Below are positions 2,062 to 5,944 of a DNA stretch of 64,000 nucleotides, piece after piece. Each line of letters opens with the position of its first letter. Position 1 is the first letter of the stretch. Source of the stretch: Cyanidioschyzon merolae. Its lineage: Eukaryota. Both the position numbers and the translations under genes were made by a program. The notes beneath the pieces are model-generated. The model did not search any database. It worked only from the letters and a program-made list of their open reading frames with translations, and was not told where the DNA came from. The stretch is taken from the NCBI GenBank assembly GCA_000091205.1, contig AP006486.2, one strand, 5' to 3'.

Positions 2062-2889
2062 ATGTTGGGCGTGATTGGTGGCACGTCGCTGTTCCACTCA
2101 CAGCGCTTTGCGGGCTTTGACAGACGACACGTCCATACACCATACGGGGAGGTCGTCTGCTATTGCGACAGTACAGAACCGTCTCTGGTATTCTTGCAGC
2201 GGCACCATGCGGACGCTCATCGTGGTGTTGACGCGTATACGCCTCCACACCGTATAAACCATCGTGCAAACCTGTACGCCTTAAAGCAAGTCGGCGTGGA
2301 CCGCTGTGTAGGTGTCTACAGTGTCGGATCTCTGAACCCCGCAATTCGAGTAGGGACCTGTGTGCTTACCCACGACTTTTGCTCCCTCGCGCAACTCTGT
2401 CGGGCGGAAACGTTTTATGACGAGGACATGCGAGGCCACGCAGTCATCCGCTTTGATCAGATGCTTCGCGACCGAGTTCTGACGTCGCTCAAGGATCTGT
2501 CTGCTGCTTCCCAGATTGGCGATTCGAAGACAGCAGAAACGTCGTCTAAGCAGTCGTTTGTCATGGCTTCAACGGCTTCTGCAGCAATGAGTTTCCACGA
2601 CGGTGGCGTTTACGTGCAAACCGCTGGACCCCGCTTCGAGACACCTGCCGAGGTTCGCATGCTGCGAACGTTCGGAGACGTGGTAGGTATGACTGGTGCC
2701 TCCGAGGCCGTCTGCTGTGGCGAGCTGGGAATCCCCTACATGCAAGTCTGCTTTGTCGATAACCTGGCGAATGGTCTGATCAGTGGAGCAGAACAAACGG
2801 AGATTGCTGAATTTCACGACAATGTGAAGGCTAATCTCAAACGCGTAGAGGTAATTATTGACCGAGTGATTGAGACGTTGCGACATTGA
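2062..2889 (+). CDS. 5'-methylthioadenosine / purine nucleoside phosphorylase (PNP_UDP_1 family, MTAP-like)
   Basis: The ORF spans 1924..2889; the probable start is the Met at 2062 ('MLGVIGGTSL', the family's N-terminal G-rich phosphate loop). 'HTPYGE...LQRHHADAH...NHRANLYALKQVGVDRCVGVYSVGSLNP' and 'VQTAGPRFETPAEVRMLRTFGDVVGMTGASEA' match MTAP/PNP signature regions. The stop is TGA. Confidence 0.8.
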   Translation: MLGVIGGTSLFHSQRFAGFDRRHVHTPYGEVVCYCDSTEPSLVFLQRHHADAHRGVDAYTPPHRINHRANLYALKQVGVDRCVGVYSVGSLNPAIRVGTCVLTHDFCSLAQLCRAETFYDEDMRGHAVIRFDQMLRDRVLTSLKDLSAASQIGDSKTAETSSKQSFVMASTASAAMSFHDGGVYVQTAGPRFETPAEVRMLRTFGDVVGMTGASEAVCCGELGIPYMQVCFVDNLANGLISGAEQTEIAEFHDNVKANLKRVEVIIDRVIETLRH

Positions 2890-4453
2890 GCGCTGTAACC
2901 TGGGCAGGGTATTGCAAGGTCTCGCGCTATCTCGCTTGAACGCCTCGTATGAGTCGTTCACCCGTAGAACGCTTTGAAATGGTGTCGAAACTGGAGCTTG
3001 TCGGATTATACGAGCGCTCCTTTTATAATGGAATGCTTGGTGCGAAAAAAGTATCAAGTGACTGCGCATTGCTGGATATTCGAGCACGATGACAAATAGA
3101 TCATGGCCGTGACAAGCGGCATTCGGACCGGCAACGCGGCAGCTGAGATTGTCTATGGCGCCGAATGCATACAGACTTGCTCTACCAGTTCTTTTAGATC
3201 GAAAGAACATGCGTTCAAGGATATTCGTTCGTTCCATTGAATTTGGGGCTCATCGACAAGTGCCCGCTCAGGCGGAAGCATTCGCAGAGGAGCCATACCT
3301 CCATGCAAACGCTTGCGAGCATGCGTACGGTTTCGTGCACGAATACATGCATACGCTCACAGAAAAACTCAGACAAATGCATATGAATACTAGCCCCGAT
3401 GCGTTGATACATGAGCATCTACCCGTGCACGTGCATACACGAACGTTCACCGCCGTGTACCTCGCTGCAGAAAAGACAAGTGCCTAACGTGCTTGATGGC
3501 GTTTGGCATCGAGGGTTCACCTCTCGGAAAGCATCGCATGCAGCCGGTGATCCGAAACGGATTCCAAAAGTCTCTGGATTCAGAGATACCAATATCAGGA
3601 AACTCTCTGTCGATCAACCGCAAGCAAGCAAGATTGTGCTTTGCAGCGTCGCTGTGCTCCATCAAGATCCATAAACATTTGCTCAACTCCATTATACCGT
3701 TGTTGTTGCATGATGCGAGACATTCACGTAGCGTATCCGCAAGCAAACGCGAGGTTTTTACAGTCTAGAACCCAGCCGGGGCATCGTTCGCGGCAATATT
3801 GGGCACTCAGGCTCCTGTGCTGACGCAGACCAGACTCTCGGTGTCGAGCTGCTACGCACACCCCGCGTATAACATAACATATGAGACAGGTACACATCTG
3901 TTTGCTCCATGCACGCCGGATGTAACCAAGGTCCCCACTGATGCGTGCTGGTCATTGGTCGTCGGGAAATCGATCACCATTACCACCATCATGATCATCA
4001 TTTTCAGCACTTGTCCGCTGGAGAATTGCTCGGCTCTTCTGTCCACGCATGCGGCAGCGTGCACTGCGCAGGGCCTGTAGAGACCATCACCCTACACGCA
4101 AATACTGAAAGCCTCGATCCCATCTTGGTCCACGCGAACGTTCTTACGTACGACCCGTGCACATGCAGGCGCCATTGTATTCACTGAATGAAACGAGTAC
4201 GAGCGGCGCGCGTGAACGCTCATCATTCCTTTCACGAAACTGGGGAAGCTGTGGACCAGGAGCCACGTCCAAGGCCAAGCGCCACCCGATTCAGTGTTTC
4301 GCATCTTGCCTCTTTCGATATCAAGCCTTGGGAAATGCGATCAGAGCGGACGCTCATCCGAACTCCACCCTTTGCAGTTCATGTCATGGGTGTGTACGTC
4401 CCGCGTCCAGAGAGATACCTCACAAACTGAAGGTGATCAGCGTGCGTCTCGCT

Positions 4454-5944
4454 CTAGTTCCGTGAAGCGTGTCGTGTGGTAGCAGCATAGCTGCCGTCCT
4501 CACCTCGCTGAGACCCCAGCGTGCGTATGCGCTGGTGCCAGTGTCGGATACGCTCAACGAGTTTCGCTTGCGAAATCGTCTGCAGTACTCCATCGTGGAC
4601 CACCCGGCGAGCACCTATCCAAACATCCGTCACTTGGTCCGGTCCCGCTCCATAAACCAAAGCCGAACACACATCGTGCACAGGCATTGTTGAGAGGCCA
4701 TCTGCAACTCGTACGGCAATGAAATCGGCTGCCTTGCCAGGTTCCAAGGAACCCAGCAAGTGGTCCAGTCCCAGTGCTCGGGCGCCTTGAATCGTCGCCA
4801 TACGCAGCACCTGATAGGCCGTAAGGCAATCGCTGCGACCTGTACTTCCTTTGGCCAAGAGCGCTGCAAGGCGCATCTCAGCCCACATGTCGAGTCGGTT
4901 GTTACTGGCAGCGCTGTCCGTTCCGAGGGCGACGTTGATGCCGGCGTCCAGCATCTTGGTAAGCGGAAAAACACCACTGCCCAGTTTCAAATTCGACGCT
5001 GGACAGTGCACGACCGAGGCACCTCTCCTGCGCACCAGCTCGATATGCGCATCCGTCACATGCACCATGTGCACAAGAGTCCAGTTTGCAGCCAACAGGC
5101 CGAGTCGCTCTAAGTTGTCCAGTGGCGCACCTGCAAACTCGCTGCGGTGGCAGACAAGTACCCCACGATCCAGCGTTTGACTCGCCTTCACCTCCGCAGC
5201 TGTCTCGTGCATGTGGATGTGCACCCGTCGGCCTTCATCCATCGCTCGTTTCCCGACCTCACGGAGGATTTCCTCTGATACCGAGTAAGTTGCATGGGGC
5301 GCGTAGCTGCTTTCCATTAAGGGAATCTCCCGGTGGGGATTTTCTGGCGAGTCCTTTAGGGTGCCTTCTGCGATGATCTGCGTCAAGCGGCTCGCTTTTT
5401 GAAAGTATTCTTCTGGGCCAGAGCCGTAGCGGCTCGGAAAGTCCACCACGACCATGCCGAGCACTGCACGCATGCCGGCTTCCCGGCACACTTGCGCGGT
5501 GACCTCTGGATACCAGTACATATCGTTTAGGGTGGTGCAACCGCTTCGCAGCAGTTCCGCAACCGCCAGCATGCTACCGTCACGAACAAAGTGCTCGTCG
5601 ACCAGTTCGCGTTCCAGTGGCCAGATCACGCTACGCAGCCAGGTGTCTAGCGCTTGATCGTCTCCAAGTCCTCGAAACAGGCTCATGGCAGCGTGTGTGT
5701 GCGCGTTGATCAGACCAGGAAGCAGAGCGTGCTCAGAGAGGCACACTCGCTCGGCGCTGGGGTACCGCTTCCACGCCTCTTCTCGCGGAAGAACGGCCGC
5801 TATCCGGTCACCCTCTAGAACAAGCGCGTGATCTTCCAGCCATAGCGGCTCGTTGGCATGGGTTTCATCCCATACTGGAAGCAGCCACCGCGCAGCTACC
5901 ACTTGTTGAGCGACGGAACGAGCGCTCCCACGAACCAGGGCCAT
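4454..5944 (-). CDS. Metal-dependent amidohydrolase of the MTA/SAH deaminase (MtaD / TRZ-ATZ) family
   Basis: 496-aa ORF with the family hallmark '[34 protein letters not shown]' (HxH metal ligands plus the RG..DD..L..WL..IWP.E motif). Downstream are '[11 protein letters not shown]' (metal-binding His) and '[11 protein letters not shown]' (catalytic Asp). Confidence 0.8.
   Translation of the reverse strand: [496 protein letters not shown]

What the first reader, a model, noticed from the sequence alone, without database searches (positions are those of the whole stretch)
2062..5944. Convergent MTA phosphorylase and MtaD-type MTA/SAH deaminase genes
A clear MTAP-like phosphorylase (2062-2889, plus strand) and an amidohydrolase with the MtaD signature '[30 protein letters not shown]' (4454-5944, minus strand) are neighbours about 1.5 kb apart. 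MTAP alone suffices for canonical eukaryotic methionine salvage. MtaD-type deaminases convert MTA or SAH to their inosine analogues, a route known in some bacteria and archaea and functionally paralleled in Plasmodium. Having both in one locus suggests this organism can route MTA through either phosphorolysis or deamination, or that the amidohydrolase acts on SAH or 5'-deoxyadenosine.
Basis: partly seen in the sequence, partly recalled or inferred. Interest (0 to 1): 0.5.

Follow-up and report, generated by a model that had tools for sequence, protein, structure and literature searches.

The report
Red-alga MTA deaminase plus methylthioinosine-type phosphorylase pair

Summary
A 275-aa PNP/MTAP-fold phosphorylase (2062-2889, +) and a 496-aa amidohydrolase (4454-5944, -) are convergent, 1564 bp apart. 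The window is Cyanidioschyzon merolae.

The amidohydrolase belongs with the solved proteobacterial MTA/SAH deaminases (4F0R, PA3170; E about 1e-100), not guanine deaminases (1e-27). It nests among Gammaproteobacteria, which suggests horizontal transfer.

The "clear MTAP" is not an adenine-type MTAP. It has Glu193/Asn234/Ala236 where human MTAP has Ser178/Asp220/Asp222. This is the 6-oxopurine signature of human PNP and of P. aeruginosa methylthioinosine phosphorylase, its best sequence and fold match in the PDB. All 119 closest homologues scored at these sites share Glu/Asn.

In prokaryotes this phosphorylase clade is directly followed by an MtaD-type deaminase in 43/73 genome loci and 35/53 metagenome loci. 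The convergent pair is kept in three Cyanidiaceae lineages.

Most likely pathway: MTA is deaminated to MTI, which is split into hypoxanthine and MTR-1-P. The steps are sequential, not parallel. This is a new member of a known pathway type. It is inferred from sequence only, and no enzymology exists.

The parts
2062..2889 (+). CDS of a 275-aa MTAP-fold phosphorylase with a 6-oxopurine (MTIP/PNP-like) base pocket
   Evidence: Pfam PNP_UDP_1 scores 100 bits. The best PDB sequence hit is 3OZB, PaMTIP. The AF2 model has pLDDT 91.8, and its top Foldseek PDB hit is 3OZB with target-normalised TM-score 0.82.
2638..2640 (+). Codon for Glu193, which aligns with human PNP Glu201, PaMTIP Glu and human MTAP Ser178
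   Evidence: MAFFT alignment with validated reference sequences. Glu is present in 119/119 homologues.
2752..2775 (+). Motif FVDNLANG. Asn234 (2761-2763) aligns with human PNP Asn243, PaMTIP Asn and human MTAP Asp220. Ala236 aligns with MTAP Asp222.
   Evidence: Asn is invariant in 119/119 homologues and present in 78/80 prokaryote loci.
2509..2595 (+). Lineage-specific insertion (residues 150-178), predicted to be disordered
   Evidence: pLDDT is below 50 at residues 164-170. The stretch is not conserved in L001 or L004 by tblastx.
2890..4453 (.). 1564-bp gap between the convergent 3' ends, with no conserved element found
   Evidence: No tRNA or Rfam hit. No tblastx conservation with L001 or L004. 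The same gap is 771 bp in L001 and 37 bp in L004.
4454..5944 (-). CDS of a 496-aa amidohydrolase of the proteobacterial MTA/adenosine/5'-deoxyadenosine deaminase clade (PA3170/Cv1032 type)
   Evidence: Pfam Amidohydro_1 scores 237 bits. NCBIfam NF006549 scores 517 bits. PDB E-values are 4F0R 1.5e-102 and 4DYK/4GBD about 1e-99.
5681..5701 (-). HTHAAMS, the HxH metal-binding motif (His82, His84)
   Evidence: Aligned to HGHSAMS of 4F0R. Coordinates verified.
5201..5221 (-). HIHMHET, the HxxE motif (metal His plus catalytic Glu247)
   Evidence: Aligned to HCHIHET of 4F0R. Coordinates verified.
4898..4924 (-). GTDSAASNN, which carries the metal-binding/catalytic Asp343
   Evidence: Aligned to GTDGAASNN of 4F0R. 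Coordinates verified.

Best explanation
The two genes encode consecutive steps of a deaminase-first route for 5'-methylthioadenosine. Step 1 (inferred): the metal-dependent amidohydrolase deaminates MTA to 5'-methylthioinosine. By analogy with its relatives it probably also acts on 5'-deoxyadenosine and adenosine. Step 2 (inferred): the neighbouring MTAP-fold phosphorylase cleaves MTI with phosphate to hypoxanthine and methylthioribose-1-phosphate. Its base pocket is the hypoxanthine type (Glu193/Asn234/Ala236) and its 5' pocket is hydrophobic (Ile248/Phe251). MTR-1-P would then feed methionine salvage, and hypoxanthine would feed purine salvage. What is shown directly is the gene structures, the residue identities, the family relationships, the synteny and the operon coupling in prokaryotes. 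The substrates and the flux are inferred. On origin, the deaminase came from a Gammaproteobacteria-like donor into the Cyanidiaceae ancestor. The phosphorylase belongs to a eukaryote subclade shared with other red algae, oomycetes and Balamuthia. The adjacency was therefore assembled in the alga.
For: Deaminase. The best solved relatives are MTA/SAH deaminase 4F0R (1.5e-102) and P. aeruginosa PA3170 (4DYK/4GBD, about 1e-99), with the HxH, HxxE and Asp motifs conserved. The best NCBIfam model is NF006549 at 517 bits, against 170 for guanine deaminase. Apart from Cyanidiaceae, the top hits that carry a name are Gammaproteobacteria at 44-49% identity; most of the 120 are unnamed. In the NJ tree Cyanidiaceae are monophyletic (1.0) inside the 44-taxon proteobacterial clade that holds Cv1032 (1.0). 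One close bacterial homologue lies next to mtnA.

Phosphorylase. Ser178, Asp220 and Asp222 of human MTAP are replaced by Glu193, Asn234 and Ala236. These match Glu201/Asn243 of human PNP and the Glu/Asn of PaMTIP. All 119 homologues scored share Glu/Asn. The best PDB match by sequence and by fold is PaMTIP 3OZB, solved with hypoxanthine. The position of His257, which I recall (not checked here) binds the 5'-OH in human PNP, is hydrophobic here (Ile248), as in MTAP and MTIP.

Coupling. In 43/73 informative prokaryote genome loci and 35/53 metagenome loci, the clade's phosphorylase is followed by a co-directional MtaD-type amidohydrolase; in the genome set the median gap is about 11 nt. The convergent pair is kept in three Cyanidiaceae lineages at 51-71% identity, with the gap ranging from 1564 down to 37 bp.

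Precedent. The same two-step logic is described for P. aeruginosa and M. jannaschii (PMC6302742) and, with unrelated enzymes, for Plasmodium (PMC3885546).
Against: There is no biochemical or genetic data for either protein. Neither reaches a curated equivalog cut-off: MTIP NF006599 scores 147 against 223, MTAP TIGR01694 scores 172 against 275, and NF006549 scores 517 against 540. The Glu/Asn signature indicates 6-oxopurine specificity, but 5'-methylthio rather than 5'-hydroxyl preference rests only on aligned hydrophobic residues in a gapped region. The prokaryotic operon partner is a different deaminase subfamily (PRK06038-like, median 35% identity to the algal enzyme). Other eukaryotes with the same phosphorylase clade have no adjacent amidohydrolase (Porphyridium, Saprolegnia and two unnamed eukaryote contigs). 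The flanking genes Nop14 and Skp1_POZ are also syntenic, so conserved adjacency may reflect general collinearity and not selection. I could not search the rest of the genome for a canonical MTAP, an MTA nucleosidase, ADA or the downstream salvage enzymes.
Confidence: 0.6

Rival explanations
1. General purine-nucleoside salvage rather than methionine salvage. The amidohydrolase serves mainly as an adenosine (or 5'-deoxyadenosine) deaminase, and the phosphorylase as an inosine/guanosine (or 5'-deoxyinosine) phosphorylase. MTA would be at most a side substrate.
For: The Glu/Asn base pocket is the same as in human PNP. The review PMC6302742 reports that the M. jannaschii MTI phosphorylase acts on six purine nucleosides and is paired with a 5'-deoxyadenosine deaminase. 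NCBIfam also gives 280 bits to the 5'-deoxyadenosine deaminase model NF005557. A Porphyridium homologue is annotated as 'putative 6-oxopurine nucleoside phosphorylase'.
Against: The fold and sequence are of the MTAP/MTIP family, not the PNP family. The residue aligned with His257 of human PNP, which I recall as the 5'-OH binder (not checked here), is hydrophobic. The closest solved deaminases are named MTA/SAH deaminases. One close bacterial homologue lies next to mtnA. This rival overlaps the main explanation and does not exclude it.
Confidence: 0.2
2. The phosphorylase is a true adenine-releasing MTAP and the deaminase provides a parallel, alternative route for MTA, SAH or 5'-deoxyadenosine.
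For: The best NCBIfam hit by score is the MTAP model TIGR01694 at 172 bits. The fold matches human MTAP almost as well as PaMTIP. Source annotations call some homologues MTAP.
Against: The score is below the MTAP cut-off of 275. The three adenine-contacting positions of human MTAP are all replaced by the 6-oxopurine set, invariantly across 119 homologues. The clade is coupled in operons with deaminases, which would be pointless for an adenine-type enzyme.
Confidence: 0.1
3. The adjacency is a coincidence. The transferred amidohydrolase landed next to the phosphorylase by chance, and the two act in unrelated processes, for example deamination of another purine or pterin.
For: Neighbouring genes (Nop14, Skp1_POZ) are equally syntenic, so conservation of the pair is not by itself evidence of selection. 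The genes are convergent, not co-transcribed. Other eukaryotes lack the adjacency.
Against: My rough estimate of the chance of landing beside one specific partner, assuming about 5000 genes in this genome (gene number recalled, not measured here), is about 4e-4. The same two enzyme types are independently coupled in about 60% of prokaryote loci. Both proteins match the two halves of a characterised pathway.
Confidence: 0.08

Closest known systems
Pseudomonas aeruginosa MTA deaminase (PA3170, PDB 4DYK/4GBD) plus methylthioinosine phosphorylase (PA3004, PDB 3OZB)
   Same: Both proteins are homologous to the Pseudomonas enzymes. The deaminase is in the same proteobacterial subfamily (E about 1e-99). 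The phosphorylase has the same MTAP fold, the same Glu/Asn/Ala base pocket and its best PDB match here. The inferred two-step logic is the same (PMC6302742).
   Different: The phosphorylase is only 33% identical to PaMTIP, sits in a separate 'DN[YMFL][ACG][NH]G' clade (NJ support 0.935) and fails the NF006599 cut-off. From memory, the Pseudomonas genes are not adjacent, whereas here they are convergent neighbours in a eukaryotic chromosome. The two algal genes have different evolutionary origins.
Methanocaldococcus jannaschii 5'-deoxyadenosine/MTA deaminase (DadD) plus MTI phosphorylase
   Same: It has a deaminase-first route with a 6-oxopurine MTAP-family phosphorylase. Many archaeal and bacterial relatives of the algal phosphorylase sit in operons with MtaD/DadD-type deaminases. 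The promiscuous activity on MTI and 5'-deoxyinosine is described in PMC6302742.
   Different: The algal deaminase belongs to the PRK09045 proteobacterial subfamily, not the archaeal PRK06038/DadD type. I could not obtain the MJ0060 sequence to test clade membership.
Plasmodium falciparum adenosine deaminase plus PNP acting on MTA and MTI
   Same: The chemistry is the same in a eukaryote: MTA is converted to MTI and then to hypoxanthine (PMC3885546).
   Different: The protein families are unrelated (classical ADA and hexameric family-I PNP). Plasmodium is a purine-auxotrophic parasite, whereas the alga is free-living.
Canonical MTAP (human MTAP, PDB 1CB0; archaeal MTAPs 1V4N, 2A8Y)
   Same: It shares the fold and the phosphate-site residues, which here are Thr8, Arg47, His48 and Thr211.
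   Different: Identity is 27%. The positions of Ser178, Asp220 and Asp222 are replaced, and the score is below the TIGR01694 cut-off.

Membership tests
MTAP (EC 2.4.2.28; NCBIfam TIGR01694) | PNP/MTAP (PNP_UDP_1) fold | tested here: met
   Pfam scores 100 bits. The AF2 model has pLDDT 91.8, and Foldseek top hits are MTIP and MTAP structures with query-normalised TM-scores of 0.65-0.75.
MTAP (EC 2.4.2.28; NCBIfam TIGR01694) | Score above the curated equivalog cut-off (274.85 bits) | tested here: not met
   172.4 bits.
MTAP (EC 2.4.2.28; NCBIfam TIGR01694) | Adenine-binding residues Ser178, Asp220 and Asp222 (human numbering; their role is established structural knowledge, not re-derived here) | tested here: not met
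   Glu193, Asn234 and Ala236 occupy these columns. The reference sequence was validated 283/283 against 1CB0.
MTAP (EC 2.4.2.28; NCBIfam TIGR01694) | Phosphorolysis of MTA to adenine | not testable with these tools
   Needs enzymology.
Methylthioinosine phosphorylase (EC 2.4.2.44; PaMTIP, NCBIfam NF006599) | Score above the curated equivalog cut-off (223 bits) | tested here: not met
   147.4 bits. The protein lies in a sister clade, not the Pseudomonas clade.
Methylthioinosine phosphorylase (EC 2.4.2.44; PaMTIP, NCBIfam NF006599) | 6-oxopurine base pocket (Glu plus Asn, as human PNP Glu201/Asn243) on an MTAP scaffold | tested here: met
   Glu193/Asn234 align with the PaMTIP Glu/Asn and with human PNP E201/N243.
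Methylthioinosine phosphorylase (EC 2.4.2.44; PaMTIP, NCBIfam NF006599) | Hydrophobic 5'-alkylthio pocket instead of a 5'-OH-binding His | tested here: inconclusive
   Ile248/Phe251 align with MTAP Val233/Val236 and PaMTIP Met/Ile, against His257 in human PNP. The region is gapped, and position 233 varies within the family.
Methylthioinosine phosphorylase (EC 2.4.2.44; PaMTIP, NCBIfam NF006599) | A partner MTA deaminase in the same genome | tested here: met
   The partner is the adjacent convergent gene. Operon coupling is seen in 43/73 and 35/53 prokaryote loci.
Methylthioinosine phosphorylase (EC 2.4.2.44; PaMTIP, NCBIfam NF006599) | Phosphorolysis of MTI but not MTA | not testable with these tools
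   Needs enzymology.
Proteobacterial MTA deaminase / TRZ-ATZ hydrolase (PA3170, Cv1032; NCBIfam NF006549) | Amidohydrolase fold with HxH, HxxE, His and Asp metal/catalytic motifs | tested here: met
   Pfam scores 237 bits. The motifs at residues 82-88, 242-248 and 341-349 align with 4F0R.
Proteobacterial MTA deaminase / TRZ-ATZ hydrolase (PA3170, Cv1032; NCBIfam NF006549) | Score above the curated equivalog cut-off (540 bits) | tested here: not met
   517.2 bits, a narrow miss. The algal protein has insertions and a C-terminal tail.
Proteobacterial MTA deaminase / TRZ-ATZ hydrolase (PA3170, Cv1032; NCBIfam NF006549) | Groups with characterised MTA/SAH deaminases and not with guanine/cytosine deaminases | tested here: met
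   PDB E-values are 1e-102 to 1e-99, against 1e-27 for guanine deaminases. The NJ clade with Cv1032 has support 1.0.
Proteobacterial MTA deaminase / TRZ-ATZ hydrolase (PA3170, Cv1032; NCBIfam NF006549) | Deamination of MTA | not testable with these tools
   Needs enzymology.
Tm0936/Bacillus-type MtaD (NF012037) and archaeal DadD (NF005557) | Score above the curated cut-offs (779 and 522 bits) | tested here: not met
   217.7 and 280.4 bits. These are related subfamilies, not the family of this protein.
Guanine deaminase (TIGR02967) | Score above the cut-off (375.4 bits) | tested here: not met
   170.1 bits. PDB guanine deaminases match only at about 1e-27.

The most novel reading that the evidence does not exclude
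Cyanidiaceae run the first steps of methionine and purine salvage from MTA only through a chimeric, physically linked gene pair. A resident eukaryotic MTI-type phosphorylase is served by a deaminase captured from a gammaproteobacterium, which integrated right beside its metabolic partner. More broadly, the whole eukaryote subclade annotated as 'MTAP' in red algae, oomycetes and Balamuthia would consist of 6-oxopurine/MTI phosphorylases. A deaminase-first MTA route would then be widespread in free-living eukaryotes, not a peculiarity of Plasmodium.
Probability: 0.3. Interest if true: 0.6.

Novelty: new member of a known kind. Interest (0 to 1): 0.4.

Why it matters
If correct, the C. merolae "MTAP" annotation would be wrong, and so would that of its relatives in other red algae, oomycetes and many uncultured bacteria and archaea. 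Metabolic reconstructions should then route MTA through methylthioinosine and hypoxanthine, not adenine.

It would also be a tidy case of a horizontally acquired enzyme completing a pathway with a resident enzyme while sitting next to it in a eukaryotic genome. C. merolae is genetically tractable and both proteins are small, so the prediction is easy to test. The pathway chemistry itself is already known from Pseudomonas, methanogens and Plasmodium, so the conceptual gain is moderate.

Tried and rejected
- **Primary papers not held.** I tried to read the primary papers on PaMTIP, PaMTADA, the Tm0936-family deaminases and M. jannaschii DadD (PMC3040260, PMC3567251, PMC3827683/10.1021/ja4066078, PMC3957708). 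None is held. The roles of human PNP Glu201/Asn243/His257 and human MTAP Ser178/Asp220/Asp222 therefore rest on established structural knowledge, not on a paper read here.
- **Porphyridium neighbour.** I checked whether the convergent neighbour of the Porphyridium homologue is a diverged amidohydrolase. It is not.
- **Joint operon transfer.** I considered transfer of both genes together from a bacterium and rejected it. The operon-type deaminase is a different subfamily (median 35% identity). The algal phosphorylase scores 50-65 bits higher against a eukaryote-group HMM than against any prokaryote group. The genes are also convergent.
- **Metagenome scan.** A scan for further Cyanidiophyceae loci returned only prokaryote-like relatives at 44% identity or less. 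I used it instead as a replicate of the operon test.
- **Rossoni et al. 2019 (PMC6629376).** The paper lists a Cyanidium-lineage HGT 'adenine deaminase (OG0005683)' that may be this gene. Its supplements are not held, so this is unverified.
- **Literature searches.** Searches for Cyanidioschyzon with methylthioadenosine or methionine salvage, and for methylthioinosine with alga, found no description of this pathway in algae.
- **Hidden features in the gap.** I looked in the 1.56-kb gap for tRNA, Rfam families and tblastx conservation and found nothing. The 222-aa antisense ORF at 2569-3237 has no support.
- **Other salvage genes.** No other methionine-salvage gene was found among the window's larger ORFs.

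
Full report
**Observation.** One is a 275-aa ORF from ATG 2062 to the stop at 2889 on the plus strand. The other is a 496-aa ORF from ATG 5944 to the stop at 4454 on the minus strand. Their 3' ends face each other across 1564 bp. The quoted peptide starts at residue 82 of the minus-strand protein. Pfam assigns PNP_UDP_1 (1.3e-28) to the first and Amidohydro_1 (5.1e-70) to the second.

The amidohydrolase is 100% identical to a database protein whose cluster contains XP_005535515.1, 'probable N-ethylammeline chlorohydrolase' of Cyanidioschyzon merolae 10D, on a 513,455-bp record. 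The window is therefore a chromosome of this nearly intron-free red alga. That explains the sparse, intronless genes on both strands. GC and GC3 of both genes match the neighbouring genes.

**The amidohydrolase.** By sequence, its best solved relatives are:
- the Chromobacterium violaceum 5-methylthioadenosine/S-adenosylhomocysteine deaminase 4F0R (1.5e-102);
- 3LNP and 4DZH;
- the P. aeruginosa PA3170 structures 4DYK and 4GBD (about 1e-99).

Guanine deaminases match only at about 1e-27. The HxH, HxxE and Asp motifs align residue for residue with 4F0R. The best NCBIfam model is NF006549 (PRK09045, TRZ/ATZ hydrolase, the PA3170 type) at 517 bits, just under its 540-bit cut-off. The DadD, Tm0936-type MtaD and guanine deaminase models score 280, 218 and 170 bits.

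Only four close clusters exist: C. merolae, Cyanidiococcus yangmingshanensis, an unnamed Cyanidiaceae lineage and Cyanidium caldarium. Identities run from 52% to 100%. Every other protein in the top 120 is 44-49% identical. Most are unnamed, and nearly all that carry a name are Gammaproteobacteria such as Methylomagnum, Methyloparacoccus, Endothiovibrio and Acidiferrobacterales. One longer hit (P0041) sits in a plainly bacterial context.

In a neighbour-joining tree with 200 bootstraps the Cyanidiaceae sequences are monophyletic (1.0). They lie inside the proteobacterial clade that also holds Cv1032 (44 taxa, support 1.0; internal nesting 0.66-0.72). This fits a horizontal transfer from a gammaproteobacterium-like donor into the Cyanidiaceae ancestor. 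Rossoni et al. 2019 list an 'adenine deaminase (OG0005683)' among HGT genes specific to this lineage, which may be this gene. I could not verify that.

In the three bacterial loci I inspected, the deaminase is followed by a ubiG-like methyltransferase and a HAD phosphatase. In one locus it is divergent from mtnA, the methylthioribose-1-phosphate isomerase (468 bits to TIGR00512).

**The phosphorylase.** The protein has the MTAP/PNP fold. The AlphaFold model has mean pLDDT 91.8, and Foldseek hits are MTIP and MTAP structures. But it reaches only 172 bits on the MTAP equivalog model (cut-off 275) and 147 bits on the Pseudomonas MTI-phosphorylase model (cut-off 223).

Its best PDB match is 3OZB, both by sequence and by fold (target-normalised TM-score 0.82). 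3OZB is the P. aeruginosa 5'-methylthioinosine phosphorylase solved with hypoxanthine.

I aligned the protein with three references: human MTAP (my remembered sequence, validated 283/283 against 1CB0), human PNP (validated 289/289 against 1PF7) and PaMTIP (rebuilt from the alignment). The result is clear:

| Human MTAP | Human PNP | PaMTIP | C. merolae |
|---|---|---|---|
| Ser178 | Glu201 | Glu | Glu193 |
| Asp220 | Asn243 | Asn | Asn234 |
| Asp222 | Val245 | Ala | Ala236 |
| Val233 | His257 | Met | Ile248 |

- In the trimeric PNP/MTAP family, Glu201 and Asn243 of human PNP are the established determinants of 6-oxopurine binding. Asp220 and Asp222 of MTAP contact the adenine N6/N7. This is established knowledge that I could not re-read here.
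- The residue aligned with His257, which I recall (not checked here) binds the 5'-OH in human PNP, is hydrophobic in C. merolae, as in MTAP and PaMTIP.
- The phosphate-site residues are retained.

All 119 closest homologues scored at these sites carry Glu and Asn within an invariant DN[YMFL][ACG][NH]G motif. So do 78 of 80 prokaryotic genome loci. The protein is therefore an MTAP-scaffold enzyme with a hypoxanthine-type base pocket, which is the logic of an MTI phosphorylase.

**Relatives of the phosphorylase.** They include other red algae (Porphyridium, annotated 'putative 6-oxopurine nucleoside phosphorylase'; Rhodella; Palmaria), oomycetes, and Balamuthia (annotated 'putative S-methyl-5'-thioinosine phosphorylase'). 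They also include many uncultured bacteria and archaea. The odd presence of this 'MTAP' in Phytophthora and red algae, and its absence from photosynthetic stramenopiles, has been noted before (PMC5592239).

The NJ tree supports the DNxxNG clade (0.935) with PaMTIP as the next branch. It places Cyanidiaceae only weakly (0.45) with the other eukaryotes. Group-specific HMMs are clearer: all five Cyanidiophyceae sequences score 50-65 bits higher against the eukaryote-group HMM than against any prokaryote group. The phosphorylase and the deaminase therefore have different histories.

**Coupling of the two functions.** In 80 bacterial and archaeal genome loci holding this phosphorylase clade, 47 contain an MtaD-type amidohydrolase. 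The taxa include Syntrophorhabdaceae, Magnetococcales, Acidimicrobiia, Solirubrobacterales, Methanosarcinales/ANME-2, Altiarchaeota and Thermoplasmata. Among the 73 loci with at least 1.5 kb of downstream sequence, 43 have the amidohydrolase co-directional and immediately downstream, with a median gap of about 11 nt. In one Magnetococcales genome the two ORFs overlap. An independent set of 80 metagenome loci gives 35 of 53.

That operon partner belongs to a different deaminase subfamily (PRK06038-like, median 35% identity to the algal enzyme). The algal pair is thus not a transferred operon. It is a re-creation of the same functional pairing.

Within Cyanidiaceae the convergent pair, and the flanking Nop14, are kept in three lineages. 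The gap shrinks from 1564 bp (window) to 771 bp (L001/L002) and 37 bp (the Cyanidium-like L004). Other eukaryotes with the phosphorylase have no adjacent amidohydrolase.

**Mechanism and confidence.** The best-supported reading (about 0.6) has two inferred steps:
1. The deaminase converts MTA to MTI. It probably also accepts 5'-deoxyadenosine and adenosine.
2. The phosphorylase splits MTI into hypoxanthine and MTR-1-P.

This is the route described for P. aeruginosa and M. jannaschii (PMC6302742). Plasmodium does the same with unrelated enzymes (PMC3885546). The gene models, residue identities, family placement, synteny and operon statistics are shown directly. The substrates, the flux, and whether this is the alga's only MTA route are inferred.

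The main rival (about 0.2) is a broader purine-nucleoside salvage role, which overlaps the main reading. Pure coincidence (about 0.08) is unlikely given my rough estimate of about 4e-4 for a chance landing next to the one matching partner, which assumes about 5000 genes (a recalled number, not measured here).

**Limits.**
- Neither protein passes a curated equivalog threshold.
- The 5'-substituent preference rests on a gapped part of the alignment.
- The trees are distance-based and sample only top hits.
- The rest of the genome could not be searched for a canonical MTAP, an MTA nucleosidase, ADA or MtnA-D.
- I found no paper in the held library describing this route in algae. Automated names already given to some homologues point the same way.

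**Verdict.** This is a new eukaryotic, HGT-assembled member of a known two-step pathway, of moderate interest.

Noticed in passing
window 339-641 (-), 2062-2889 (+), 4454-5944 (-), 10186-12450 (-); L001, L002, L004, L090: The block Skp1_POZ/elongin-C-like, phosphorylase, amidohydrolase, Nop14 is collinear with an unnamed Cyanidiaceae lineage (L001/L002). L004 keeps Nop14, amidohydrolase and phosphorylase. A 50%-identical phosphorylase on a short contig (L090) keeps the Skp1_POZ neighbour, but the contig ends before any amidohydrolase could be seen.
   Followed up: partly
window 2509-2595 (phosphorylase residues 150-178): A Ser/Ala/Thr-rich insertion is confined to the C. merolae-like lineages. 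It is predicted to be disordered (pLDDT below 50 at residues 164-170) and is not conserved in the Cyanidium-like orthologue or in other homologues.
   Followed up: partly
window 5945-10185: This is a 4.2-kb stretch between the amidohydrolase and Nop14. Nothing in it is conserved by tblastx against the orthologous loci, and its ORFs (6744-7043, 8134-8682) have no Pfam hit. The equivalent spacer is about 2 kb in L001 and 0.3 kb in L004.
   Followed up: partly
window 2569-3237 (-): A 222-aa ATG ORF runs antisense over the 3' end of the phosphorylase gene into the gap. It has no homology support and is probably a shadow ORF.
   Followed up: no
window 42904-43698 (+): This ORF matches PF06695 (putative small multidrug export protein, 3.4e-32). 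I recall this family as mostly prokaryotic, so it could be another transfer or endosymbiont-derived gene.
   Followed up: no
window 24252-25328, 27642-29183, 34700-35464, 39068-41863, 55474-56535, 59324-62080: Other recognisable genes are a GATA zinc-finger protein, a Myb-domain protein, a Ras/Rab GTPase, a glycogen/starch phosphorylase (1039 bits), a short-chain dehydrogenase and a Kelch-repeat protein with a Trefoil domain. None is related to methionine salvage.
   Followed up: no
L009-L088 and L096-L175 (prokaryote loci): The proteins NCBI names 'MTAP family purine nucleoside phosphorylase' in many uncultured bacteria and archaea almost all carry the Glu/Asn 6-oxopurine signature. About 60% sit directly upstream of an MtaD-type deaminase. 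Verrucomicrobia/Opitutaceae members lack the adjacent deaminase.
   Followed up: partly
L095 1-1419 and L005 4892-5929: Near the gammaproteobacterial deaminase homologues lie polyamine-pathway genes (agmatine deiminase family PAD_porph and a CN_hydrolase) in one locus and mtnA in another. The deaminase, ubiG-like methyltransferase and HAD phosphatase order recurs in all three loci inspected.
   Followed up: partly
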